A stretch of DNA of 50,066 nt from an uncultured Eubacteriales bacterium (GTDB lineage: Bacteria > Bacillota > Clostridia > TANB77 > RGIG9151): positions 1-50,066 of the forward strand of contig CAZVVZ010000001.1 of NCBI GenBank assembly GCA_964631135.1, written 5' to 3'. The stretch's first letter is position 1, and every line of letters starts with the position of its first letter. The position numbers and the translations under genes were made by a program. The notes beneath the pieces were generated by a model. That model made no database searches, was not told where the DNA came from, and saw only the letters and a program-made list of their open reading frames with translations. Below, one piece after another: positions 258-50,008 of the stretch.

Positions 258-1994
258 ATGAAATTTACAAAAGATTCAATAAAAAATATAATTTTCTATT
301 CTGGCTTAATGCTGCTATCCTTTCTAGTTACGACACTAATCATATCGTCCGTAAACTTTTTATTTAAGGGCAGAATTAACTCAATAACGGCTGTAATTTC
401 GATCATTCTATCTATAGCTGTATTCTTCCTGGTAACTTATAAACAGCCTAAAACAGAAGCTATTTTAGGTTTAATTTTAGGCGTGGTTATTTTTGCCGTA
501 TTTATTTTTATAACTCAAAACATTTTAGATTTTGCTCATGACAGCAATTGGTACCATAAAGCAGCTTTAGGGAGTTTAGCTAATGGTTGGAATCCGGTTT
601 ATGAAGAATTTGGGGAATTTGCTAACAATTCAGATTTAAATATAACGGACATGAATTATGCAGCAATATTTACACAGCATTATTGCAAGGCTTCTTGGAT
701 TACAGGGGCTAATATATATTGCTTAACAGGTAATATAGAAACAGGGAAATCAGTTAATTTGTTAATGGCATATATATTGTTTGTGCTTACATTTCATTAT
801 TTGTCGAAGGTATATTTAAAATGGTGGCAGTCATTGATTGTTAGTGGACTTATGGTATACAATCCGCTTACTGTTTCTCAGATTTTCACGTTGTATGTAG
901 ATAATTTATTATATACTTGCTTATTTGGAATTATAGTTATGCTGTTCGGAATTTCGGATAAAAAGTATGATTTGGACGAAAAGATAAAATATTATGTATT
1001 ATTTGGCTTAGTAGTTTTTTGTGTAAATATAAAGTTTACAGGGCTGGCATATGCAGGAGTTTTCTGCTTACTGTTTTATATAATCTGGATTATACATTCT
1101 ATAGTGAATAAGAACTTTAAGCAAGTTTTCATTAAAAACACTGTTTTTTATATAATAACATGCAGCATAGCGATTTTTTTAGTTGGATTTTCTACATATG
1201 TTACAAATTATTTGGACGATGGACATCCCTTATATCCGCTGGCAGGGGAAAATAAGAGAGATATTATGACCGGAAATCAGCCAACAGCATTTAATAAAAT
1301 TAACGGTATAGATCGACTTCTTATTTCTGTATTTTCAAAAACAGAAAATATTACAGGGAAAAAATTACCTGATTTAAAATTTCCGTTTATTGTTTATGAA
1401 GAGGAGGAGGAAATAGTTTCAGTTGGACCGGATACCAGGATTGCAGGTTTTGGCCCACTCTTTGGCGGCATACTATGCTTTTCCGCTGCTATATTAACAT
1501 TTGGAACATACTGCTTATTTAAATTAAATAAATATTGGTTTGCAATTATTATTTCTAATATTGCTGTCATCTTAACGTTGTTACTTTGTATAGAAGAAAG
1601 CTGGTGGGCGAGGTATTCCCCGTATTTTTATTTGATACCTATGCTTGCATTAGTAATTATTTTTATAGCATTTAACAATGAAGTTAAGCTTTTCAAATGC
1701 TTAATAGGAGCGATTTGTGCAGTTTGCATATTTTTACTTGTGAAAAATACAAATTACTTTGTTAAGTATGTTGATAGGTGTATTATAGATTCTAAAACAA
1801 CACTTGAAAATTTAGAAAAAGTCAGAAAAGCATCAGAAGATGGGCCGGTAAAAATTTCATTGATTGTTTCTTCACATTATGGTATTGAATTTAACTTAAA
1901 AGATGCCGATATAAATTACGTTAAAGTTGAGCCGTATACTGTTACTCCGAATAAATTATATGGCGAACTTATGTATGTGGAGGATATAGAGTGA
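258..1994 (+). CDS. Large polytopic integral membrane protein; possible GT-C-type lipid-linked-sugar-dependent glycosyltransferase
   Basis: 578-aa ORF with SD aaaggagagg just upstream of the ATG. Hydrophobic helices run through about residue 500, followed by a soluble tail. The stop overlaps the GTG start of the next gene (GTGA). The functional call rests only on topology and neighbours. Confidence 0.45.
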   Translation: MKFTKDSIKNIIFYSGLMLLSFLVTTLIISSVNFLFKGRINSITAVISIILSIAVFFLVTYKQPKTEAILGLILGVVIFAVFIFITQNILDFAHDSNWYHKAALGSLANGWNPVYEEFGEFANNSDLNITDMNYAAIFTQHYCKASWITGANIYCLTGNIETGKSVNLLMAYILFVLTFHYLSKVYLKWWQSLIVSGLMVYNPLTVSQIFTLYVDNLLYTCLFGIIVMLFGISDKKYDLDEKIKYYVLFGLVVFCVNIKFTGLAYAGVFCLLFYIIWIIHSIVNKNFKQVFIKNTVFYIITCSIAIFLVGFSTYVTNYLDDGHPLYPLAGENKRDIMTGNQPTAFNKINGIDRLLISVFSKTENITGKKLPDLKFPFIVYEEEEEIVSVGPDTRIAGFGPLFGGILCFSAAILTFGTYCLFKLNKYWFAIIISNIAVILTLLLCIEESWWARYSPYFYLIPMLALVIIFIAFNNEVKLFKCLIGAICAVCIFLLVKNTNYFVKYVDRCIIDSKTTLENLEKVRKASEDGPVKISLIVSSHYGIEFNLKDADINYVKVEPYTVTPNKLYGELMYVEDIE

Positions 1995-2854: not shown

Positions 2855-2881
2855 TGTTCTTGATATTGTTTAGAGCTAAAG

Positions 2882-2893
2882 CTGACTAGTAAC
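2882..2893 (-). repeat. Solo T1 terminus fragment (ctgactagtaac)
   Basis: 12/12 match to the right terminus of T1 copy G (cagtctgactagtaaccaat, 46861-46880). No partner arm is nearby. Confidence 0.4.
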
Positions 2894-3859: not shown

Positions 3860-3895
3860 AACGGTGAACTTTGTAAGGCCACTAAAAAAGCCTTC

Positions 3896-4036
3896 GCAAA
3901 TAAAAAATAGCACAGATGTCATATAGTTTAACGTTGCTCAGAATTCACGGCGGAAACCCTTATCATATGCTATAGGGTGGTTTTCTGTGAATATTCGCAT
4001 CTTTTTAAACTATATGACATCTGTGTTATTTTTTGC
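3896..4036 (+). repeat. T2 long-hairpin repeat, copy 1 (forward); weaker palindromic flanks extend to about 3866-4063
   Basis: atagcacagatgtcatatagtttaacgttgctcagaattcacggcggaaaccc ... gggtggttttctgtgaatattcgcatctttttaaactatatgacatctgtgttat. It is about 90% identical to the reverse complement of 20763-20887. It lies between convergent genes. Confidence 0.85.
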
Positions 4037-4063
4037 AAAAACTTTTTCAACTGCTTCACAAAG

Positions 4064-5032
4064 TTAAACTTTTTTCTTAAATGCAAATAATTTTAATAAT
4101 AAAAAAGTAACGGGTATTCCGAATATTGCAGCTAAGCAGTATACCAGTAATTTTTCCCAGCCTAAAATATTATAAAAAAGTATTACAAATCCGTTTTGTA
4201 TTAAAAAGTTTGGTATATATGAAATACAAAATTTCACAAATTTTTTTAATGATAAATTTTCCTTAAAAGTTAGAAAACTATTAAGTAAGTATGCGATAGA
4301 AAGGCTTGTTAAGTACCCTACAATAAAAGCTAGATTTACATTTTTTATTATTAGAGAATAGAGATAAGCAAAACCAATACCGTTTATTGTATTTATGACT
4401 CCAATTATTAAAAACATAATAAATTGCAATGAGAGGAATGTCTTTTTTAGTTTAGTAAATAATGAAGGTTTATATGTATCCCACCCTATTAACTTTTCTT
4501 TCTGAACGATATAGGCATTTTTTGCAATGTTTTTAAGTGGTGTGTCAGATAACGAATCTGAGTAAAAAGTGTCTATGGTTTCTTTTGGAAACACATTATA
4601 AAATCTTTTAACTTTTTCCTCACCATAGCAGTTTTCACCTGTGTATTTTCCGGTTTCTTTATCTACAACTGAAGCCATAAGCTTTTGAATTTTTAATTCC
4701 AAACAAATTGGTTCAAGTAAAAATTCCGGAGATGCCGAGATTACTATGTCACTATCAAAATGAGAACTTTTATACCATTTTTTTATCTTGTGTTTGTTTT
4801 TTTTCCAAAAATCTTTTATGTAACTGTCAATATTATTTATTCCGCTAAATACCTCAAAAAATTTCTCTTTAAATTGAGTTTTGGTTAAAAAGCCAAAAAG
4901 GTATTTTGTAAAAGCCCATGCTTGTTTAGGGAGAAACTTTAATAGGGAAGGTTGCCTTTTTATGCAGTAAAAATAGAAGTCTACTGTGCTATCTCCGTCA
5001 TATATTGTTTTATCAAAATCGTATACGTTCAT
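4064..5032 (-). CDS. Fusion protein: N-terminal HAD-superfamily phosphatase domain plus C-terminal GtrA-like 4-TM domain
   Basis: 322-aa ORF. The N-terminus MNVYDFDKTIYDGDS carries the HAD DxDxT motif. The C-terminal ~130 aa contain four hydrophobic helices with GtrA-like spacing (FIMFLIIGVINT...FLLLKLFAFKK). Confidence 0.6.
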   Translation of the reverse strand: MNVYDFDKTIYDGDSTVDFYFYCIKRQPSLLKFLPKQAWAFTKYLFGFLTKTQFKEKFFEVFSGINNIDSYIKDFWKKNKHKIKKWYKSSHFDSDIVISASPEFLLEPICLELKIQKLMASVVDKETGKYTGENCYGEEKVKRFYNVFPKETIDTFYSDSLSDTPLKNIAKNAYIVQKEKLIGWDTYKPSLFTKLKKTFLSLQFIMFLIIGVINTINGIGFAYLYSLIIKNVNLAFIVGYLTSLSIAYLLNSFLTFKENLSLKKFVKFCISYIPNFLIQNGFVILFYNILGWEKLLVYCLAAIFGIPVTFLLLKLFAFKKKV

Positions 5033-5300: not shown

Positions 5301-5344
5301 CCTTAAAAGTAAAACATATATGTTATTTTCTAGGTAGTCTGACT
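5290..5344. repeat. Internally deleted T1-like mini-hairpin abutting copy B
   Basis: A 12-bp stem agtcagactacc / ggtagtctgact, made of T1 terminal sequence, encloses a 31-nt loop that retains aaaacatatatgtt. Confidence 0.6.
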
Positions 5345-5448
5345 AGCGATTTTTTGAATAATAGCATTATTTTTAATATTGACAATATTAAAAATTTGAG
5401 GTATTGTAATAATTGAATTATAACACTTATATATAGAAGGGATGAAAA

Positions 5449-20294: not shown

Positions 20295-20708
20295 ATGAAT
20301 AAAGATGAATTGAAAAAAATTTTACCGCATAGAGAGCCGATGCTACTTGTTGAAGAAGCAGAAAAAATTGATGAAAATAAAGCTATTGGGAAATATAAGG
20401 TAAAAGGTGACGAATGGTTTTTGCAAGGGCATTTCCCGGGAAATCCTGTTGTGCCGGGAGTTGTGCTTTGCGAGATGATGGCACAGGCTTGCTGTGTGAT
20501 ACTTGCAGATAAAGTAAGCGGTGCAACACCGTATTTTACAGGACTTAATAATGTTAAATTTAAAAATAAGGTCTTGCCGGGGGATGAGCTAATTACTGAA
20601 TGTGAGATTACTAAATCTAAACACCCTTTTTACTTTGCCACAGCTAAAGGGAGTGTCAATGGAAAACTTTCGGTTTGTGCGGATTTTTCATTTGCATTGA
20701 TAAAATAA
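20295..20708 (+). CDS. fabZ: 3-hydroxyacyl-ACP dehydratase
   Basis: The start is taken at MNKDEL, 5 nt after aggagg. It carries the hot-dog motif HFPGNPVVPGV. The stop codon lies inside the 12-bp direct repeat flanking T2 copy 2. Confidence 0.9.
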   Translation: MNKDELKKILPHREPMLLVEEAEKIDENKAIGKYKVKGDEWFLQGHFPGNPVVPGVVLCEMMAQACCVILADKVSGATPYFTGLNNVKFKNKVLPGDELITECEITKSKHPFYFATAKGSVNGKLSVCADFSFALIK

Positions 20709-20713
20709 AGTCT

Positions 20714-20936
20714 CTATTCAGGGAAAAAGGGGTTGAAAAAAACTCTTCCCTAAATAATAAAACATAGCACAGAGCTCATATAGTTTAAAAGATGCGAATA
20801 TTCACAGGAAACCATCCTATAGCATAGGATAAGAGGTTTCCGTCGTGAATCCTGAGCAACGTTAAACTATATGAGCTCTGTGCTATGTTTTATTATTTAG
20901 GGAAGAGTTTTTTTCAACCCCTTTTTCCCTGAATAG
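20714..20936 (-). repeat. T2 long-hairpin repeat, copy 2 (reverse), a 223-bp foldback flanked by a 12-bp direct repeat; possible MITE insertion
   Basis: ctattcagggaaaaaggggttgaaaaaaactcttccctaaataataaaacatagcacagagctcatatagtttaa ... and its reverse complement form the arms. gataaaataaag occurs at 20699-20710 and again at 20938-20949. Confidence 0.85.
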
Positions 20937-20962
20937 GGATAAAATAAAGATTTAGTTTATAT

Positions 20963-22135
20963 TTACTCATCTTCACTATCCAATAACATTTTTGACTCAA
21001 CTTCAGCTAAACTTGTTACAGAGCTTAGTTTTCTTTGAATTTGTCTTGTTCTGACACCTACGAGTTTATCTAAGTTATCATTTGCTTGTTCCAATCGCTT
21101 TTGCGTATCGCTTAAAACTGTAGCAAAATTATCAAATTCTGTTTTTACTGCACCCAGTACTTTCCAAACTTCACTTGAACGTTTTTGAATTGCTAAAGTT
21201 TTAAATCCCATTTGCAAGCTATTTAGTAATGCAGCCATTGTTGTAGGACCTGCAATTACAATTTTATACTTTTCCTGTAATTCTTCGATAAGACCCTGTC
21301 TTACCACTTCTGCATATAAACCTTCAAATGGTAGAAACATTATTCCAAAATCTGTTGTATAAGGTGGGTAAATGTATTTTTCTTTTATCTCCTTAGCACA
21401 TAATTTTATCATTCTAATGAGTTCTTTTACACATGTATCTATTTTTTCTTGGCTTCCGTTATCATATGCTTCAAGTAAATTTGAGTATGCATCTCCCGGG
21501 AACTTAGAATCTATAGGGAGATAAACAACTCCATCTTCATCGCCCGGTAATTTTACTGCAAATTCTACCACATTAGTAGATTTTGGCTTTGTTGCAATAT
21601 CAGTTTCATACTGTTCGGGTGATAAAATCTGCTCTAAAATAGCACCAAGCTGAATTTCGCCTAAAATACCGCGAGATTTTACATTTGTTAAGACTTTTTT
21701 TAAGTCTCCTACACCTGTTGCTAAATTTTGCATTTCTCCAAGCCCTTTATATACCTGCTCTAATCGCTCACTTACCAACTTAAATGATTGCGAAATTTTG
21801 TTTTCTAAAGTTTTTTGCAATTTCTCATCTACAGTGTTTTTCATCTCATCTAATTTTTTATTATTATTTTCTTGCATCTGATTTACTTTTGTATCTATTT
21901 GAATTAGCATATCATTTACCGTTCTTTGAAGGGTGTTATTTCGTTCTGTAAGCTGGTCGTTAAGCTCTGAGAGACGCTTATCCTGCATACTGGATAAATC
22001 AGAAAGCCTTCTGTCTTGCAATTCGGCGGTTTGCTTTTGTGTAGAATTTAACATATCACCTAAAAATTTTATCGCGATAAGCACAACGATTATTATTAAG
22101 ATTGTGGCAATCGCAACTCCTATGTATATTTCCAT
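20963..22135 (-). CDS. rmuC: DNA recombination protein RmuC
   Basis: 390 aa. An N-terminal TM helix is followed by a long coiled-coil and then a nuclease-like C-terminal domain (FGIMFLPFEGLYAEV, VIAGPTT), matching RmuC family architecture. Confidence 0.8.
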   Translation of the reverse strand: MEIYIGVAIATILIIIVVLIAIKFLGDMLNSTQKQTAELQDRRLSDLSSMQDKRLSELNDQLTERNNTLQRTVNDMLIQIDTKVNQMQENNNKKLDEMKNTVDEKLQKTLENKISQSFKLVSERLEQVYKGLGEMQNLATGVGDLKKVLTNVKSRGILGEIQLGAILEQILSPEQYETDIATKPKSTNVVEFAVKLPGDEDGVVYLPIDSKFPGDAYSNLLEAYDNGSQEKIDTCVKELIRMIKLCAKEIKEKYIYPPYTTDFGIMFLPFEGLYAEVVRQGLIEELQEKYKIVIAGPTTMAALLNSLQMGFKTLAIQKRSSEVWKVLGAVKTEFDNFATVLSDTQKRLEQANDNLDKLVGVRTRQIQRKLSSVTSLAEVESKMLLDSEDE

Positions 22136-22911: not shown

Positions 22912-23068
22912 GTTATTCTTCAGGCTTATATATGAAAATAATATATATGTTTTACCGGAACTCAGGATTTACAACGAAAGACTTTAAAAAATATAGGAAG
23001 TCTTTCTGCAAATATTCGTTCCTTTTAAAACATATATATTGTTTTCATGTAATAGTCTGAATAGTAAC
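22912..23068 (+). repeat. T1 long-hairpin repeat, copy D, forward (more degenerate arms)
   Basis: gttattcttcaggcttatatatgaaaataatatatatgttttaccggaactcaggatttacaacgaaagactt ... aagtctttctgcaaatattcgttccttttaaaacatatatattgttttcatgtaatagtctgaatagtaac. Confidence 0.85.
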
Positions 23069-32538: not shown

Positions 32539-32572
32539 TCCTTTCTACAAACATTCGTTCAAACATATATAC

Positions 32573-32585
32573 TCTGACCAGTAAC
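32573..32585 (-). repeat. Solo T1 terminus fragment next to copy E
   Basis: tctgaccagtaac resembles the right terminus tctgactggtaac of copy A (11/13). It lies 12 nt outside the left end of copy E. Confidence 0.35.
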
Positions 32586-32597
32586 CGAAGATGACAC

Positions 32598-32750
32598 TGT
32601 TCAGACTGCGACTATATGAAAATAATATATATGTTTTAAAAGGAACGAATATTTGCCGAAAGACTTCCCGTATTTTTTAAAGTCTTTCGTCGCAAATCCT
32701 GAGTTCCGATAAAACATATATATTATTTTCATATAGCAGCAGTCTGAACA
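32598..32750 (-). repeat. T1 long-hairpin repeat, copy E, reverse
   Basis: tgttcagactgcgactatatgaaaataatatatatgttttaaaaggaacgaatatttgccgaaagactt ... aagtctttcgtcgcaaatcctgagttccgataaaacatatatattattttcatatagcagcagtctgaaca. Confidence 0.9.
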
Positions 32751-32785
32751 AGTACCACGAAGACTACCTTTTTATTTGATATATA

Positions 32786-36161: not shown

Positions 36162-36304
36162 GTTGCTATTCAGACTACTAAATAATATATATGTTTTATC
36201 GGAACTCAGGATTTGCGACGAAAGACTTTAAAAAATACGAGAAGTTTTTCGGCAAATATTCGTTCCTTTTAAAACATATATATTATTTTCATATAATAGT
36301 AGCA
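36162..36304 (+). repeat. T1 long-hairpin repeat, copy F, forward, with eroded termini
   Basis: gttgctattcagactactaaataatatatatgttttatcggaactcaggatttgcgacgaaagactt ... aagtttttcggcaaatattcgttccttttaaaacatatatattattttcatataatagtagca. It is bracketed by cattcga at 36155-36161 and 36305-36311. Confidence 0.85.
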
Positions 36305-40402: not shown

Positions 40403-40617
40403 ATACTGTGAACGGATAGAGTATCCAAACTCGAATTCCGGAAAGCATAATAATCAAGGAAGATTTCAGTGTTCACGGACGAATACTTATGAAAAGAGAC
40501 CTAAAAATAAAGGGTTTATTCTCTTTGTTTTTAAGTATCTCAATTTCCGGAATTCTGAGCGAGATGCAGTATCTGTTTTTTGTTTTAAAAAAATTAAAAC
40601 AGAAAGGAGGGAGAGTG

Positions 40618-41763
40618 ATGCGAATCAATACAAATGTAATGGCCTTAAATGCACAAAATATGCTGTCTAAGAACCAAAATGATGTGGAAAAATCAATTCA
40701 GAAATTATCTTCAGGTCTTAAGATAAACGGAGCTTCAGACGATGCTTCAGGACTTGCGATAAGTGAAAAGATGAGAGCACAGATAAAAGGATTGAATCAA
40801 GCTCAATCCAATGCACAAGACGGCATATCGTTATTACAAACTGCAGAAGGTGCTTTACAGCAATCTACCGATATTCTTCAAAGGATGCGAGAGCTTGTTA
40901 TTAAGGCGCAAAACACAGGCGTATTGACGGATGAAGACAGAACGTCTATTAGTAACGAACTTAGTACACTTCGTGATGAAATTGACAGAATTTCAACATC
41001 TACAACATTCAACGGCAAGAAACTTTTAACCGGTGACATGGGAACAAAAGTGGCTACTAATAGCCTCACTAATGCAGTAGCAGTAGATGCTTCAAATGCA
41101 AAAGAGGGGATAGAGTATACATTTTCCTATGACTCTACTAAGGAAAAAATAAAAGTTTCTTGGACAGATGACGGTGTAGCAAAAACTGATTATTCAGACA
41201 AGACATATGTTTCTGATACAGATACGGTGTCAGGTCAAGTTAATTTTTCAGGAGCAGGAATAAGTATCGATTACGGTGAGACGGGTGTTACAGTAACAAA
41301 TGCTATTGCCGGTACTAAAGTAGCAACGGCAGATGTAGCAAGTGGGCAAAGAGCGGAATTTAAGATTGGCGCTAATACTTATACACAAGACGTAATGTTT
41401 GTTGGTATAAGTGACATGAGTTCGAAGGGACTAAATAAAACAGATAAAACTGAAAAATTCTCTATCGATATCAGTACAGCACAAAAAGCGAATGAAGCTT
41501 TAAGTGCAATAGATTATGCACTAAATAAAGTTTCAGAGCAAAGATCAAGCTTAGGTACCGTTCAAAACAGGATGGAATATTCCAGTAATAATCTATCCAC
41601 AACGGAAGAAAATTTAACAGCTGCCGAGTCAAGAATCAGGGATGTTGACATGGCAGAAGAAATGGTAACATACACCAAAAACAGTATTCTAAATGAGTCT
41701 GCTATGGCGATGTTATCTCAGGCAAATAAACAGCCTGAAAAAATTCTTACTTTATTACAGTAA
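40618..41763 (+). CDS. fliC: Flagellin paralog 1
   Basis: The start is taken at MRINTNVMALNAQN, 7 nt after aaaggaggg. It has conserved D0/D1 N- and C-termini (…SRIRDVDMAEEMV.YTK.SIL…LLQ) and a divergent centre. Confidence 0.92.
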   Translation: MRINTNVMALNAQNMLSKNQNDVEKSIQKLSSGLKINGASDDASGLAISEKMRAQIKGLNQAQSNAQDGISLLQTAEGALQQSTDILQRMRELVIKAQNTGVLTDEDRTSISNELSTLRDEIDRISTSTTFNGKKLLTGDMGTKVATNSLTNAVAVDASNAKEGIEYTFSYDSTKEKIKVSWTDDGVAKTDYSDKTYVSDTDTVSGQVNFSGAGISIDYGETGVTVTNAIAGTKVATADVASGQRAEFKIGANTYTQDVMFVGISDMSSKGLNKTDKTEKFSIDISTAQKANEALSAIDYALNKVSEQRSSLGTVQNRMEYSSNNLSTTEENLTAAESRIRDVDMAEEMVTYTKNSILNESAMAMLSQANKQPEKILTLLQ

Positions 41764-41836
41764 GAGTAGACTTAAGTTAATATGTAATGAAAGTCACGGA
41801 TGAAAAAAATAATTAAAATTCAGGGAGGAATTTATT

Positions 41837-42979
41837 ATGAGAATTAATACTAATGTTATGGCGTTAAACGCACAAAACAAATTAACAAAAAACCAATCAA
41901 GTGTAGAAAAGTCAATCCAAAGATTGTCTTCAGGTTTAAGAATCAACAGTGCAGCTGATGATGCTGCAGGACTTGCAATCAGTGAAAAAATGCGTGCACA
42001 AATCAGAGGTCTTGGTCAAGCTCAAGACAATGCACAGGACGGTATTTCCTTAATTCAAACAGCAGAGGGTGCTTTACAACAAACAACAGACATTCTTCAG
42101 AGAATGAGAGAGCTTGTTATTAAAGCCCAAAACACAGGTGTATTAACAGATAACGATAGAACATCTATCTCAAGCGAGTTAAGTACACTACGTGATGAAA
42201 TTGACAGAATTGCTACTTCTACAACATTTAACAGTAAAAAACTATTAAATGGTGAATTAGGAAATGAAATGGAATCTGCTAATATTGGCTCATATGCAAG
42301 AATAGATGTAGCTAATGCTGATTCAAGCACGGAATATACGATTGCAAATACTGTAGATTCAAACGGAAGATTACAAATGACATGGACTGATGAAGCAGGT
42401 AGTACACATACAGCAGTGTCAGATATATCTTTTGGTAGTGGTGCAACTGCTGTTGCAGGAAGGGTTAACTTTGCTGATGCAGGAATAATTGTAGATTTCG
42501 GCGACGATGATGTAGCATTAGCAAGTGCAGCCGGAACAATTACAACATCTGCTGCTCAGAAAAGAGCAGACTTTAAGATTGGTGCAAACACATATGAAGA
42601 AGACGTTTTATCGTGCGGCATTAGTGATATGTCCTCAACTGGATTAAACAGAGATATGAAAGCTAATGAAAAGTTCGGAATAGACATAAGCACAGCTGAT
42701 TTAGCTAATGAAACATTAGATAATTTGGACTATGCTTTAGAGACAGTTGCATCACAGAGATCCACTCTTGGTGTTATGCAGAACAGAATGGAATATGCGG
42801 TAAGCAACTTATCTACAACCGAAGAAAACTTAACATCTGCTGAATCTCGTATCCGTGACGTAGATATGGCTGAAGAAATGGTAAGCTATACAAAGGATAG
42901 CATATTAAATCAATCTGCTATGGCGATGTTAGCACAAGCAAATCAACAGCCACAAGCGATCCTTTCATTACTTCAATAA
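41837..42979 (+). CDS. fliC: Flagellin paralog 2
   Basis: 380 aa, MRINTNVMALNAQNKL..., with SD cagggagga. Confidence 0.93.
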   Translation: MRINTNVMALNAQNKLTKNQSSVEKSIQRLSSGLRINSAADDAAGLAISEKMRAQIRGLGQAQDNAQDGISLIQTAEGALQQTTDILQRMRELVIKAQNTGVLTDNDRTSISSELSTLRDEIDRIATSTTFNSKKLLNGELGNEMESANIGSYARIDVANADSSTEYTIANTVDSNGRLQMTWTDEAGSTHTAVSDISFGSGATAVAGRVNFADAGIIVDFGDDDVALASAAGTITTSAAQKRADFKIGANTYEEDVLSCGISDMSSTGLNRDMKANEKFGIDISTADLANETLDNLDYALETVASQRSTLGVMQNRMEYAVSNLSTTEENLTSAESRIRDVDMAEEMVSYTKDSILNQSAMAMLAQANQQPQAILSLLQ

Positions 42980-42999
42980 CGGAGAAGTAATGTTCTCCG
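42980..42999 (+). terminator. Weak hairpin after flagellin 2 (cggagaa-gtaatg-ttctccg), no clean U-tract
   Basis: A 7-bp stem directly after the stop codon. The downstream sequence gaattgaagttttt has only a distal T-run. Confidence 0.3.
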
Positions 43000-43050
43000 G
43001 AATTGAAGTTTTTCAAGGATGAGAAATTTCAAATTCAAGGAGGAATTATT

Positions 43051-44169
43051 ATGAGAATTAATACAAACGTAATGGCATTAAATGCCCAAAATAAGTTATC
43101 AGCAAATGAAAGTAGTGTAGAAAAATCAATTCAAAGATTATCTTCAGGTTTAAGAATTAACAGTGCAGCAGACGATGCATCAGGCTTAGCAATAAGTGAA
43201 AAGATGCGTGCTCAGATCAGAGGCTTAGATCAAGCCCAATCTAATGCACAAGACGGTATATCGTTATTACAAACAGCTGAAGGTGCTTTACAACAAACAA
43301 CAGACATTCTTCAAAGAATGAGAGAGCTTGTTATTAAAGCTCAGAACACAGGTGTGTTAACAGACAACGATAGAACATCTATCTCAAACGAACTTAGCAC
43401 ACTACAGGATGAAATCGACAGAATTGCTACATCTACTACATTTAACGGAAAGAAATTGTTAGATGGCAGTATGTCAACAAAGCTTGATGCTGGCTCAACC
43501 ATTACTGGGCTTAAAAATGTTGATGTTGCATCTGCTGATGCAGGAAAAACATTTACCTTAGCAGCAACTTTTGACAACAATAGATTAAAAATAACTGATG
43601 AAGATGGTAATGTATCATATTCAGATGTAACATTTACAAATACAAAATCTATTAGCGGTAAAGTAACATTTGCAGATATCGGAGTTTCTATAGACTTTGG
43701 TGATGAAGATGTTGAACTTGCAACAAAGACAATAAAAACAGCAGCAGTTACAAACAGAGCTGACTTCAAGATTGGTGCTAATACATTTGATGAGGACGTT
43801 TTATCAGCCGGTATCGGAGATATGTCCGCTGTAGGACTAAATAGAAATATGGGTACTGAAAAATTCTCAATTGATATTAGTAGTGCTACAACAGCAAATG
43901 ATACGTTAGATGCGATTGACTATGCACTTGATAAAGTATCTGCTCAAAGATCTAATCTTGGTGTTATCCAAAACAGAATGGAATATGCAGTAAGCAACTT
44001 ATCTACAACCGAAGAAAACTTAACAGCTGCTGAATCTCGTATCAGAGATGTAGATATGGCTGAAGAGATGGTATCTTATACAAAGAACTCTATCTTAAAT
44101 CAATCTGCTATGTCAATGTTAGCTCAGGCAAATCAACAACCACAAACAATCTTGTCATTACTACAATAG
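43051..44169 (+). CDS. fliC: Flagellin paralog 3
   Basis: The start is taken at MRINTNVMALNAQNKLSANE after caaggagga. Conserved termini, unique central region. Confidence 0.93.
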   Translation: MRINTNVMALNAQNKLSANESSVEKSIQRLSSGLRINSAADDASGLAISEKMRAQIRGLDQAQSNAQDGISLLQTAEGALQQTTDILQRMRELVIKAQNTGVLTDNDRTSISNELSTLQDEIDRIATSTTFNGKKLLDGSMSTKLDAGSTITGLKNVDVASADAGKTFTLAATFDNNRLKITDEDGNVSYSDVTFTNTKSISGKVTFADIGVSIDFGDEDVELATKTIKTAAVTNRADFKIGANTFDEDVLSAGIGDMSAVGLNRNMGTEKFSIDISSATTANDTLDAIDYALDKVSAQRSNLGVIQNRMEYAVSNLSTTEENLTAAESRIRDVDMAEEMVSYTKNSILNQSAMSMLAQANQQPQTILSLLQ

Positions 44170-44300
44170 AAAAGGATAAGTGGTCTTTAATATAAAAATA
44201 ATTGGCACTGAATATTAAAGACAATATCTAAGATACATATAAATTTAAGTGTGTTCTTAAATTATACGGCGAAAAAAATAAGAAAATACAAAAAATAAGT

Positions 44301-44327
44301 TAAGTAAATAATTGGTTTAGACGATAC
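44301..44327 (+). promoter_or_regulatory. Candidate sigma-D promoter for flagellin 4: TAAG-N17-CGATAC
   Basis: taag at 44301 and cgatac at 44322, about 95 nt upstream of the ATG. Confidence 0.4.
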
Positions 44328-44420
44328 TCTAAACAGCCGAGAGACTCTTTGCACTGGCAAGGAGTTTTTGGCGTTGACACAAGGAAGATGTCAATACAAA
44401 GAATTCAAGGAGGAATTTAT

Positions 44421-45560
44421 ATGAGAATCAACACTAACCTAATGGCGCTTAATGCGCAGAACAAATTGCGAGTAAATCAGTCAAACGTAGAAAAATCAAT
44501 CCAGAAGTTATCTTCAGGAATGAGAATCAACAGTGCTGCTGATGATGCTGCGGGATTAGCGATTAGTGAGAAGATGCGTGCTCAAATCCGAGGTCTAAAG
44601 CAAGCTCAGGATAATGCGCAAGATGGTATCTCATTAATCCAAACCGCAGAAGGTGCATTGCAGCAAACGACTGACATTTTACAAAGAATGAGGGAGCTTG
44701 TAATAAAGGCGCAAAACACCGGTGTATTGACAGACAACGATAGAACATCTATTACGAGTGAGCTTAGTACACTACGTGATGAAATTGATAGAATAGCGAC
44801 TTCAACGACCTTTAACTCAAAGAAATTGTTAGATGGTGAACTTGCAGTTCAAAGGGCAGAAAATGGTGGCACATTTGATGCCGGTATAGTGGATGTTGTA
44901 AATGCGAATACAGGTACAACGTATACGATAACTGCTAAAGAAGGAGAACGTGCATACGTTAGTTTTACTGATCCGGAAACCGGTAATACGATAAGTTATG
45001 TATCCGATATAGTGATGACAAAAACAGTTACCGGAAAAATAAACTTTTCTGATGCGGGAATTATAGTTAATTTCTGGAGAAATGAAGTATCACTGGAAAG
45101 TCTGAACGGTAAAACGATAGTAACAGCTGATGATTCCTTCGGTATTAAGGCAGATTTTAAGATTGGAGCCAACACATATTCCGAAGACATTTTAGCAATA
45201 GGAATAGGCGATATGTCATCGATAGGACTGAATGTTAAAAATGATGGGGCAAAATTTTCAATAGATATTTCTACTGCGAGCTCTGCCAACGATGTCCTAG
45301 ATGCTGTTGATTTCGCCTTGGATGCGGTAGCTTCTCAGAGAGGAACACTTGGAGCTATACAAAATCGAATGGAATATGCGATAAGTAATTTAAGTGCTAC
45401 CGAAGAAAACTTGAGTGCAGCCGAATCACGTATCCGTGATGTCGACATGTCTGCAGAGATGGTTAAGTACACAAAGAATAACATACTAAATCAATCTGCT
45501 ATGGCGATGTTGGCACAGGCAAATCAACAGCCTCAACAAGTCTTGACTTTATTACAATAA
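44421..45560 (+). CDS. fliC: Flagellin paralog 4 (visibly more G/C-ending codons in the conserved N-terminal part)
   Basis: The start is taken at MRINTNLMALNAQNKL after caaggagga. Conserved termini. Confidence 0.93.
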   Translation: MRINTNLMALNAQNKLRVNQSNVEKSIQKLSSGMRINSAADDAAGLAISEKMRAQIRGLKQAQDNAQDGISLIQTAEGALQQTTDILQRMRELVIKAQNTGVLTDNDRTSITSELSTLRDEIDRIATSTTFNSKKLLDGELAVQRAENGGTFDAGIVDVVNANTGTTYTITAKEGERAYVSFTDPETGNTISYVSDIVMTKTVTGKINFSDAGIIVNFWRNEVSLESLNGKTIVTADDSFGIKADFKIGANTYSEDILAIGIGDMSSIGLNVKNDGAKFSIDISTASSANDVLDAVDFALDAVASQRGTLGAIQNRMEYAISNLSATEENLSAAESRIRDVDMSAEMVKYTKNNILNQSAMAMLAQANQQPQQVLTLLQ

Positions 45561-46683: not shown

Positions 46684-46710
46684 AAGAGTACGTTAAACAA
46701 AATATAAAAA

Positions 46711-46880
46711 ATTGGTTACTAGTCAGACTGCTGCTATGCGAAAATAATATATATGTTTTATCGGAACTCAGGATTTGCGACGAAAGGCTTTAAAAATACT
46801 GGAAGCCTTTCGGCAAATATTCGTTCCTTTTAAAACATATATATTATTTTCGCATAGTAGCAGTCTGACTAGTAACCAAT
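46711..46880 (+). repeat. T1 long-hairpin repeat, copy G, forward (near-perfect 170-bp foldback)
   Basis: attggttactagtcagactgctgctatgcgaaaataatatatatgttttatcggaactcaggatttgcgacgaaaggctt ... aagcctttcggcaaatattcgttccttttaaaacatatatattattttcgcatagtagcagtctgactagtaaccaat. Confidence 0.9.
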
Positions 46881-46990
46881 TTTTATGTAATAGGAAATTC
46901 CTTAAAAAACAAAGGGGCTTTTCACAGAGGTTGCTGAAAAAGTCCCTTATTTCTATAATACCTTAATATTTTGTCGCGAAGCGACATGAA
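46881..46990 (+). repeat. M3 repeated module, copy Z (contiguous), abutting T1 copy G and the rpoD stop codon
   Basis: It contains ttttatgtaataggaaattcct, ctgaaaaag and ataccttaatattttgtcgcgaagcgacatga. These blocks are shared with 9348-9596, 18548-18621 and 167-192. Confidence 0.6.
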
Positions 46991-49867: not shown

Positions 49868-50008
49868 TCAATCTCACCCCACTTATGTCAAAAATATCCC
49901 TAGTTATATTATTATTCTACATAATGCAATAAATTCCTTTTACGTAAACAAAAAAATAGTTACTGCTCAGAGTGATAGCAAAAAATAAAGCAAAATGGGA
50001 AAATTTTC

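What the first reader, a model, noticed from the sequence alone, without database searches (positions are those of the whole stretch)
20699..20949. 12-bp direct repeat flanking T2 copy 2, with the left copy supplying the fabZ stop codon
gataaaataaag occurs at 20699-20710 and again at 20938-20949. The two copies immediately bracket the 223-bp foldback at 20714-20936. The left copy contains the last two sense codons and the TAA stop of fabZ (ata aaa taa). This is the geometry of a target-site duplication made by insertion just after fabZ. It is the clearest direct evidence in the window that these hairpins are, or were, mobile. The whole palindrome, including its copy-specific outer arms, lies inside the duplication. 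Either the complete foldback moved as a unit, or the core inserted into a pre-existing palindromic element. Other copies show only weak or ambiguous flanking repeats, such as cattcga around copy F and an imperfect ~17-nt repeat around copy E.
Basis: partly seen in the sequence, partly recalled or inferred. Interest (0 to 1): 0.6.

Follow-up and report, generated by a model that had tools for sequence, protein, structure and literature searches.

The report
Hairpin transposon insertion scar after fabZ
The 12-base repeat on either side of the big hairpin after fabZ is a real insertion scar, because sister strains carry the same site with one copy of the repeat and no hairpin; this shows the hairpin repeats of this uncultured Clostridia bacterium are an undescribed but fairly ordinary family of small non-coding jumping elements.

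Summary
GATAAAATAAAG occurs only at 20699-20710 and 20938-20949. The two copies abut a 227-bp near-perfect palindrome (20711-20937).

Metagenome contigs from near-identical strains, with an identical FabZ protein, carry fabZ and rmuC 15 bp apart. They have a single 12-mer and no hairpin. Other strains carry the hairpin at the same site with the same duplication. So the whole foldback, outer arms included, entered as one unit and duplicated the target.

Four points qualify this reading:
- The staggered cut may be 8-12 bp. T1 relatives show decayed 8-bp duplications next to conserved GTTACTAGTCAGACT tips, and copy 2 has T1-like tips.
- The empty alleles sit on the same flanking haplotype as one filled allele. 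They may therefore be precise excisions (slippage between the repeats) rather than the ancestral state.
- The 73-bp core is inverted between strains, here and at T1 copy E.
- The outer arms are diverged homologues of other T2 arms, not unrelated sequence.

The family was found in only one other species representative and matches no Rfam family. Verdict: a new MITE-like family; the finding is solid but of a known kind.

The parts
20295..20708 (+). fabZ (137 aa, FabA/FabZ dehydratase), last gene of the fab/acc operon. Its last two sense codons and TAA stop lie in the left repeat copy.
   Evidence: Pfam PF07977 for the identical protein. The protein is identical in filled and empty alleles.
20699..20710 (.). 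Left copy of the duplicated target, GATAAAATAAAG.
   Evidence: It is present once in the empty alleles L069 and L071.
20711..20937 (.). T2 copy 2, the inserted 227-bp foldback element. It is non-coding and is absent from the empty alleles.
   Evidence: No ORF of 50 aa or more lies inside it.
20711..20788 (.). Left arm (78 nt). The tip TCT-CTATTCAGGG resembles the T1 tip GTTA-CTATTCAGAC. The inner part, from about 20756, is shared with other T2 copies.
   Evidence: (D9, I18).
20789..20861 (+). Asymmetric 73-bp core with the conserved internal loop CGAATATT...//...AATCCTGAG. It is inverted, and 4 nt shorter, in the G-type strains.
   Evidence: 69/69 identical to the reverse complement of the L067 core apart from the AAGA indel.
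20862..20939 (.). Right arm (78 nt). Its last two bases (GA) overlap the right repeat copy, which is the source of the ambiguity in duplication length.
20938..20949 (.). Right copy of the duplicated target, GATAAAATAAAG.
20963..22135 (-). rmuC (390 aa), convergent with fabZ. Its stop codon is 13 nt from the right repeat copy. In empty alleles the two stop codons are 15 bp apart.
   Evidence: (PF02646).
3861..4075 (-). T2 copy 1, an older copy between convergent genes with imperfect arms and no clean flanking repeat. Its left outer arm differs between strains by a patch of about 12 changes.
22912..23068 (+). T1 copy D, with GTTA...TAAC tips abutted by the 8-bp repeat TAATAAAC / TTATAAAC (7 of 8 matching).
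32594..32765 (-). T1 copy E. Its core is inverted between strains, with the breakpoints inside the arms.
36162..36304 (+). T1 copy F. CATTCGA flanks it. A 111-bp internal-deletion allele exists in other strains, formed between 6-bp ATAATA repeats.

Best explanation
T2 copy 2 is a non-autonomous, MITE-like foldback element. It inserted as one 227-bp unit into the 15-bp spacer between the convergent genes fabZ and rmuC. The target was cut with a stagger and the gaps were filled in, which left GATAAAATAAAG on both sides. The insertion is neutral for FabZ, because the left copy keeps the original last codons and stop. What is shown: the duplication, the natural empty site, the absence of any palindrome at the empty site, and the multi-copy family. 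What is inferred: (1) The element was mobilised in trans by a transposase encoded elsewhere. This is probably the same enzyme that moves T1, whose copies carry conserved GTTACTAGTCAGACT tips and decayed 8-bp duplications, because copy 2 ends in T1-like CTATTCAG tips. (2) The stagger is nominally 12 nt. It would be 10 nt if the palindrome's last two pairs belong to the element, or 8 nt (AAAATAAA) if the tips lie 4 nt outside CTATTCAG as in T1. (3) After insertion, host processes acting on the long palindrome changed the locus. Recombination or template switching between the arms inverted the core in one lineage. Replication slippage between the flanking repeats probably removed the element precisely in another lineage, giving back the empty site.
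For: The exact 12-bp repeat abuts the palindrome and is unique in the window. The empty alleles read ...TTTGCGTTGATAAAATAAAGATTTAGTTTATAT... in an ENA MEGAHIT contig and in a Logan contig. A 12-bp repeat cannot make a de Bruijn assembler with k = 31 or k = 141 skip the insert. Filled alleles with the same duplication occur in at least four further contigs. The element is small, non-coding, has inverted-repeat ends, and belongs to a multi-copy family. There are 9 copies in this 50-kb window. In run X1, core k-mer depth reaches about 200 against about 7 for the flanks, and loose ends show several other T2 arms. For T1 copies, the 8-mers abutting the tips match 6/8, 6/8 and 7/8 in three of four complete copies. 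Background probability is P(>=6/8) = 0.0095. Copy 2's tips share CTATTCAG with T1 copies D and F. Core inversion: the L067 core is the exact reverse complement of the window core apart from a 4-nt indel. The asymmetric tips (left TCT-, right C-) keep their orientation. The same kind of flip occurs at T1 copy E, with breakpoints inside the arms. Slippage deletions at these hairpins do occur: a 111-bp deletion allele of T1 copy F lies between 6-bp repeats. T2 copy 1 has no similar 12-mer beside it, so the repeat is not a fixed attachment sequence.
Against: No transposase is in the window. So mobilisation in trans is pure inference. Only this one copy has a perfect duplication. A 12-bp duplication differs from the roughly 8 bp seen at T1, which a single DDE enzyme would not normally produce. 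The 8-bp parse requires a 4-nt coincidence (about 0.3-0.5%). Most T2 copies lack the CTATTCAG tips, and the best-conserved part of the family is the centre, not the ends, which is the reverse of a classical MITE. Polarity is unresolved. Empty alleles differ from the G-type filled allele by 1 SNP in 2.8 kb, whereas the A-type and G-type filled alleles differ by 13-18 SNPs per 3 kb. Strains are mosaic (L108), so gain, loss and recombination cannot be told apart.
Confidence: 0.8

Rival explanations
1. Structure-defined mobility. The mobile unit is whatever is folded into the hairpin around the conserved asymmetric core. An unknown factor recognises the folded single strand, or a cruciform, at the core 'bubble'. 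The hairpin is then cut out at its base and captured at staggered nicks. The ends need not be conserved and the duplication length can vary: about 8 at T1 copies, 12 here.
For: The core loop motif is invariant across T1 and T2 while the stems covary. Arm sequences differ between copies yet stay complementary. Most T2 copies lack a shared tip. Apparent duplication lengths differ: 12 here against 7-8 at T1. In the sister species the palindromes run into the stop codon of the neighbouring gene.
Against: T1 copies do have a conserved tip motif with abutting 8-mers, like an ordinary transposase substrate. Copy 2 carries that tip. No known bacterial enzyme works this way. The known single-strand transposases (IS200/IS605, RAYT) leave no duplication.
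Confidence: 0.12
2. Site-specific integration. The 12-mer is an attachment core carried by the element and shared with the target, recombined by an integrase, and not a fill-in duplication.
For: The geometry (repeat - element - repeat, single repeat in the empty site) is identical to attL/attR/attB.
Against: The 12-mer occurs nowhere else in the window. T2 copy 1 and the T1 copies are flanked by unrelated sequences. The six copies in the sister species are not flanked by it either. A 227-bp palindrome has no room for an integrase.
Confidence: 0.04
3. No transposition. The repeat is a chance or local duplication, and the 'empty' contigs are assembly or library artefacts that drop a hard-to-sequence palindrome.
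For: Long perfect palindromes are poorly sequenced and break assemblies. Several contigs do end inside the arms.
Against: The chance expectation is below 1e-4. Two assemblers with k = 141 and k = 31 give the identical empty junction. That junction needs real reads spanning it, since 12 bp of identity cannot bridge a de Bruijn graph. The empty contigs are 15.8 kb and 2.5 kb long and carry normal flanks.
Confidence: 0.02

Closest known systems
Bacterial MITEs that fold into long hairpins (Correia/NEMIS, ERIC/IRU, RUP, bcr1; reviewed in PMC3184786)
   Same: Small (under 400 bp), non-coding, with terminal inverted repeats. Flanked by a target duplication, multi-copy, intergenic, and able to fold into a long stem-loop.
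   Different: No sequence similarity to any of them, and no Rfam hit. The arms are 78 nt long and almost the whole element is palindromic. The most conserved part is an asymmetric central core rather than the ends. The duplication is 12 bp (8-12), against TA or 2-9 bp for the named families (my recollection for those values). The cognate IS is unknown.
IS4-family elements and their non-autonomous derivatives (IS231 / MIC231)
   Same: IS4-family members make target duplications of about 10 bp, roughly one helix turn. IS1549 and IS1634 make long duplications of variable length (PMC2266710). This is the only common bacterial group whose duplication length matches 10-12 bp. IS231 has cassette or MITE-like derivatives in Firmicutes.
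   Different: The IS231 and ISH8 groups have conserved 5'-CAT ends (PMC2266710). Copy 2 ends in TCTCTATTCAG / CCTATTCAG, and T1 ends in GTTACTAGTCAG. No IS4-type transposase could be looked for.
REPINs mobilised by RAYT transposases (PMC3116915)
   Same: Dispersed intergenic hairpins of 100-200 nt whose two arms evolve in concert. No transposase lies inside them.
   Different: REPIN/RAYT and IS200/IS605-type single-strand transposition leave no target duplication. Here a duplication and a matching empty site are demonstrated. The host group also differs (uncultured Clostridia).
Precise excision of Tn10/Tn5 and of cloned long palindromes by replication slippage (established E. coli genetics; my own knowledge)
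   Same: An inverted-repeat structure flanked by short direct repeats is deleted exactly, restoring the single target copy without a transposase. This would explain empty alleles nested among filled ones.
   Different: It is inferred here from natural strain variation only. No excision assay has been done.

Membership tests
MITE (miniature inverted-repeat transposable element) | Small (usually under 400 bp) and without a transposase gene | tested here: met
   The insert is 227 bp and holds no ORF of 50 aa or more.
MITE | Terminal inverted repeats | tested here: met
   The arms are 78 nt and 99% complementary. The tips share CTATTCAG with T1 tips.
MITE | Flanking target-site duplication, with a single copy at the empty site | tested here: met
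   A 12-bp exact repeat flanks the insert. Empty alleles with one copy exist in L069 and L071.
MITE | Multiple dispersed copies in the genome | tested here: met
   There are 2 T2 and 7 T1 copies in 50 kb. Core depth is about 30 times flank depth in run X1, and there are several other arm variants.
MITE | A cognate autonomous IS with the same ends that supplies the transposase | not testable with these tools
There is none in the window.
REPIN / RAYT system | Insertion without target duplication (HUH Y1 single-strand mechanism) | tested here: not met
   A duplication and a matching empty site are present. T1 copies have abutting 8-mers.
REPIN / RAYT system | A single-copy RAYT gene flanked by the repeats | not testable with these tools
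IS4 family / IS231-type derivative | Target duplication of about 10-12 bp | tested here: met
   The duplication is 12 bp, or 10 bp on the symmetric-end parse. The family value comes from PMC2266710.
IS4 family / IS231-type derivative | Conserved 5'-CA(T) element termini | tested here: not met
   The ends read TCTCTATT... and (reverse complement) CCTATT..., or GTCT / ATCC on the 8-bp parse.
Any Rfam RNA family | Score at or above the family gathering threshold | tested here: not met
   There were 0 hits at gathering thresholds over the whole window. The best sub-threshold hit was 27.6 bits against a threshold of 100.

The most novel reading that the evidence does not exclude
The elements are not moved by an enzyme that reads their ends. 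Instead a factor recognises the conserved asymmetric 'bubble' at the tip of the folded strand, so the unit that moves is the whole hairpin, whatever its arms have become. Arms would be renewed or extended by copying one arm from the other. Duplication length would vary between events: about 8 bp at T1 copies, 12 bp here. That would be a structure-defined transposition mode not described in bacteria.
Probability: 0.12. Interest if true: 0.75.

Novelty: new member of a known kind. Interest (0 to 1): 0.45.

Why it matters
This site gives the hairpin repeats of this uncultured Clostridia lineage what most bacterial small-repeat families lack. It is a natural filled/empty pair with an exact duplication, plus alleles that document what happens to such a palindrome afterwards: core inversion, probable precise loss, internal slippage deletion and arm patch replacement. 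That settles that T1/T2 are, or recently were, transposable DNA and not only structured-RNA genes or terminators. It also defines the substrate (tips, duplication) needed to look for the mobilising enzyme. In kind, however, this is a MITE, so the biological surprise is moderate.

Tried and rejected
- Orthologous empty site in other species: the closest species representatives (RmuC 76-85% identical) do not have fabZ next to rmuC, so there is no outgroup.
- Wider distribution of the core pattern: 6 copies in one sister MAG (CAZXFU01) and otherwise only chance hits. There were none in JGI metagenomes and only a chance hit in IMG/VR. BLAST of the element found nothing in plasmids or phages.
- Rfam: no family at gathering or E-value thresholds.
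- RNA evidence: no RNA run holds the locus.
- Run X1 consists of Logan contigs that break in the arms. It could not show empty joints or the copy number of the outer arms. I dropped an initial inference that the outer arms are single-copy.
- Exact-protein look-ups for the genes next to T2 copy 1 and T1 copy G found nothing.
- Clean duplications at the sister-species copies: none. There the palindromes run into the upstream stop codon instead.
- K-turn, attC and dif-like readings of the core were considered by eye and dropped, because the defining bases or context are absent.
- Literature searches found no description of this family.

Full report
**1. The observation**

The window is low-GC (33%) housekeeping DNA. 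It holds a fab/acc operon (FabH, FabK-like NMO, FabD, FabG, FabF, AccB, AccC, AccD, AccA, FabZ). It also holds rmuC, tmk, holB, relA, dtd, murB and four tandem flagellin genes.

fabZ (20295-20708, +) and rmuC (20963-22135, -) converge.

GATAAAATAAAG lies at 20699-20710 and 20938-20949 and nowhere else in the window.

The two copies abut a 227-bp segment, 20711-20937, with no gap. Its arms (20711-20788 and 20862-20939) are 78 nt long and 99% complementary, around a 73-bp asymmetric core. It folds at -158.5 kcal/mol, z = -24.8.

The left copy contains ATA AAA TAA, the last two sense codons and the stop of fabZ. Otherwise the description is exact.

**2. Chance**

I scanned the window exhaustively for exact direct repeats bracketing a 221-233 bp segment. 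That is about 650,000 placements. It gave one other 12-mer (23386, inside a gene) and nothing longer. A 12-mer abutting one pre-specified palindrome is therefore not a chance event (expectation below 1e-4).

**3. The empty site**

The nearest species representatives (RmuC 76-85% identical, uncultured Clostridia/Eubacteriales MAGs) do not have fabZ beside rmuC.

A look-up of the exact FabZ protein found nine contigs from near-identical strains.

- **Empty alleles.** L069 (ENA, 15.8-kb contig) and L071 (Logan) read ...TTTGCGTTGATAAAATAAAGATTTAGTTTATATTTACTCAT.... They have one 12-mer, no hairpin, and 15 bp between the two stop codons. A look-up from the rmuC side confirmed them as L105 and L106. 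A third contig (L072) ends ...GATAAAATAAAGA, which is the empty continuation.
- **Filled alleles.** L068, L074 and L075 are filled and essentially identical to the window. L067 (= L104), L070, L073 and L107 are filled at the same position with the same 12-bp duplication.
- **Not an assembly artefact.** A 12-bp repeat cannot let a k = 31 or k = 141 de Bruijn assembler jump the insert, so reads must span the empty junction.

The empty site shows no remnant palindrome. So the entire foldback, outer arms included, is what is present or absent.

**4. Which allele is older**

The flanks fall into two haplotype groups:
- A-type (20696A, 21158T): window, L068/L075, L074.
- G-type (20696G, 21158C).

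A-type and G-type differ by 13-18 SNPs per 3 kb.

Filled alleles occur on both types. The empty alleles are G-type and differ from the G-type filled allele by one SNP in 2.8 kb. L108 is a mosaic of A and G segments, so the strains recombine.

The simplest history has three steps: one old insertion, later precise loss in part of the G lineage, and inversion of the core in one lineage. Two independent insertions, or transfer of the allele by recombination, cannot be excluded. I put about 60% on secondary loss.

Loss by replication slippage between direct repeats that flank a long palindrome is well established for Tn10/Tn5 and for cloned palindromes (my own knowledge). It restores exactly the original target. 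So the inference that the repeat is a target duplication does not depend on which allele is older.

A related event is visible at T1 copy F. Two contigs carry a 111-bp deletion between 6-bp ATAATA repeats, and it leaves the outer arms in place.

**5. Flip and flop**

In the G-type filled allele the 69-bp core is the exact reverse complement of the window's core, apart from a 4-nt indel (AAGA).

The asymmetric tips keep their orientation in both alleles: left TCT-CTATTCAGGG, right (reverse complement) C-CTATTCAGGG. So the core was inverted in place by exchange between the arms. It was not re-inserted.

Orientation is linked to other differences (arm SNPs, the indel) in independent assemblies of several samples. 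This argues against an assembly artefact.

T1 copy E is likewise inverted between the two strain types: 70/71 identity in reverse against 46/71 direct. An arm mismatch near the outer end did not swap, which places the breakpoints inside the arms.

**6. The family**

Copy 2 shares its core and inner arms with T2 copy 1 (about 3861-4075, opposite orientation, also between convergent genes).

T2 is homologous to the seven T1 copies. The internal loop and bulge (CTCAGGATT..C.ACG / AATATTCG...CTTTT) are invariant while the helices covary: TTTGC/GCAAA in T1 against TTCAC/GTGAA in T2.

The "copy-specific" outer arms are diverged homologues. T2 copy 1, a chimeric contig (L074) and the loose ends in run X1 all carry a (T)TGAAAAAG-TCTTCG motif where copy 2 has GTTGAAAAAAACTCTTCC.

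In X1, k-mer depth rises from about 7 in the flanks to about 200 in the core. That suggests tens of T2-type cores in that sample.

Arms are also overwritten. Between the two strain types, the left outer arm of T2 copy 1 differs by about 12 changes in a 30-nt patch. In L091 that arm is a near-perfect complement of the right arm.

The family was found in only one other GTDB species representative, the closest relative, with six copies. It was not found in JGI metagenomes, IMG/VR, plasmids, phages or Rfam. I found no paper describing it.

**7. How long is the duplication, and what moved the element**

T1 copies end in a conserved tip, GTTAC(T/C)A(G/T)TCAGACT.

The 8-mers that directly abut these tips match as follows:

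| T1 copy | Match |
|---|---|
| A | 6/8 |
| B | 6/8 |
| D | 7/8 |
| F | CATTCGA on both sides (right tip truncated) |
| G | no direct repeat; carries an 8-nt inverted extension instead |

With a background P(>=6/8) of 0.0095, three of four complete copies is not chance. So T1 behaves like a classical MITE with an 8-bp duplication.

Copy 2 ends in CTATTCAGGG, the tip of T1 copies D and F (CTATTCAGAC). The 12 repeated bases can be parsed three ways:

| Parse | Requirement | Consequence |
|---|---|---|
| 12-bp duplication | no coincidence needed | ends 3 and 1 nt outside CTATTCAG (asymmetric) |
| 10-bp duplication (TAAAATAAAG) | 2-nt coincidence, p about 0.06 | symmetric ends TCY-CTATTCAG |
| 8-bp duplication (AAAATAAA) | 4-nt coincidence, p about 0.003-0.005 | ends 4 nt outside CTATTCAG, as in T1 |

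One site cannot decide between these. I take 12 as nominal and 8-12 as the honest range.

IS4-family elements make duplications of about 10 bp, and IS1549/IS1634 make variable ones (PMC2266710). Copy 2 lacks the 5'-CA(T) ends of that family.

No transposase or nuclease gene is in the window. The most likely mechanism is trans-mobilisation by a DDE-type enzyme encoded elsewhere that recognises the tips. This step is inferred, not shown.

The main rival is recognition of the folded core rather than the tips. Several observations keep it alive. The centre is conserved more strongly than the ends. Most T2 copies lack a common tip. In the sister species the palindromes extend into the stop codon of the neighbouring gene.

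An attachment-site reading is unlikely, because no other copy is flanked by the 12-mer.

**8. Verdict**

The feature is the cleanest insertion scar of a previously undescribed, lineage-restricted family of foldback MITE-like elements. In kind it is ordinary: a new member of a known class.

The added value lies in four things:
- the natural filled, flipped and empty allele series;
- the ambiguity in duplication length;
- the T1-like tips, which give a handle for finding the enzyme;
- direct examples of the host-driven processes that reshape long palindromes (inversion, slippage deletion, arm replacement).

Noticed in passing
window 32598-32750 (T1 copy E) vs L076: The whole core of T1 copy E is inverted between strain types. 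In the G-type strain the arms are perfect, whereas the window has a GA/TG mismatch. A 12-bp indel (32555-32566) between 6-bp AAACAT repeats lies 32 nt to the left.
   Followed up: partly
window 36187-36297 (T1 copy F) vs L077, L080: A 111-bp deletion allele removes the core and inner arms between two ATAATA repeats and keeps the outer arms. It occurs in a strain otherwise identical to the window.
   Followed up: partly
window 3874-3905 (left outer arm of T2 copy 1) vs L091: About 12 differences are clustered in a 30-nt patch between strains that differ by about 0.5% elsewhere. In L091 the arm is a near-perfect complement of the right arm. This suggests templated arm-to-arm correction or ectopic conversion from another copy.
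   Followed up: partly
L074 (ENA contig, 674 bp): The left arm and core of copy 2 are joined to a different T2 right arm (…GGCATCTGTGCTATTTTTTTATTTCGAAGACTTTTTCAGAAGCC…). This is either an assembly chimera through the shared core or a recombinant between two copies.
   Followed up: no
L086 and L090 (sister species CAZXFU01): The T2-type palindromes extend 10-26 nt beyond the recognisable element. They include the last codons and stop codon of the upstream gene, and the inverted copy lies on the far side. T1 copy G in the window (46707-46714 / 46877-46884) shows a similar 8-nt inverted, not direct, extension outside its tips.
   Followed up: partly
window 40489-45560: There are four tandem paralogous genes of 380-424 aa. 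The first has flagellin N- and C-terminal domains. They are about 65-78% identical at the DNA level.
   Followed up: no
window 2879-2893, 5336-5350, 32571-32585, 49959-49973: Solo or displaced copies of the T1 tip motif GTTACTAGTCAGACT occur without an adjacent core. They are probably remnants of decayed or nested T1 copies.
   Followed up: no
L108 vs L104/L075 (rmuC region): L108 carries a mosaic haplotype: G-type at 21696-21824 and A-type at 21158, 21629 and 22313. This shows homologous recombination among co-occurring strains.
   Followed up: partly
window 258-1994: A 578-aa ORF next to T1 copy A has no Pfam match.
   Followed up: no
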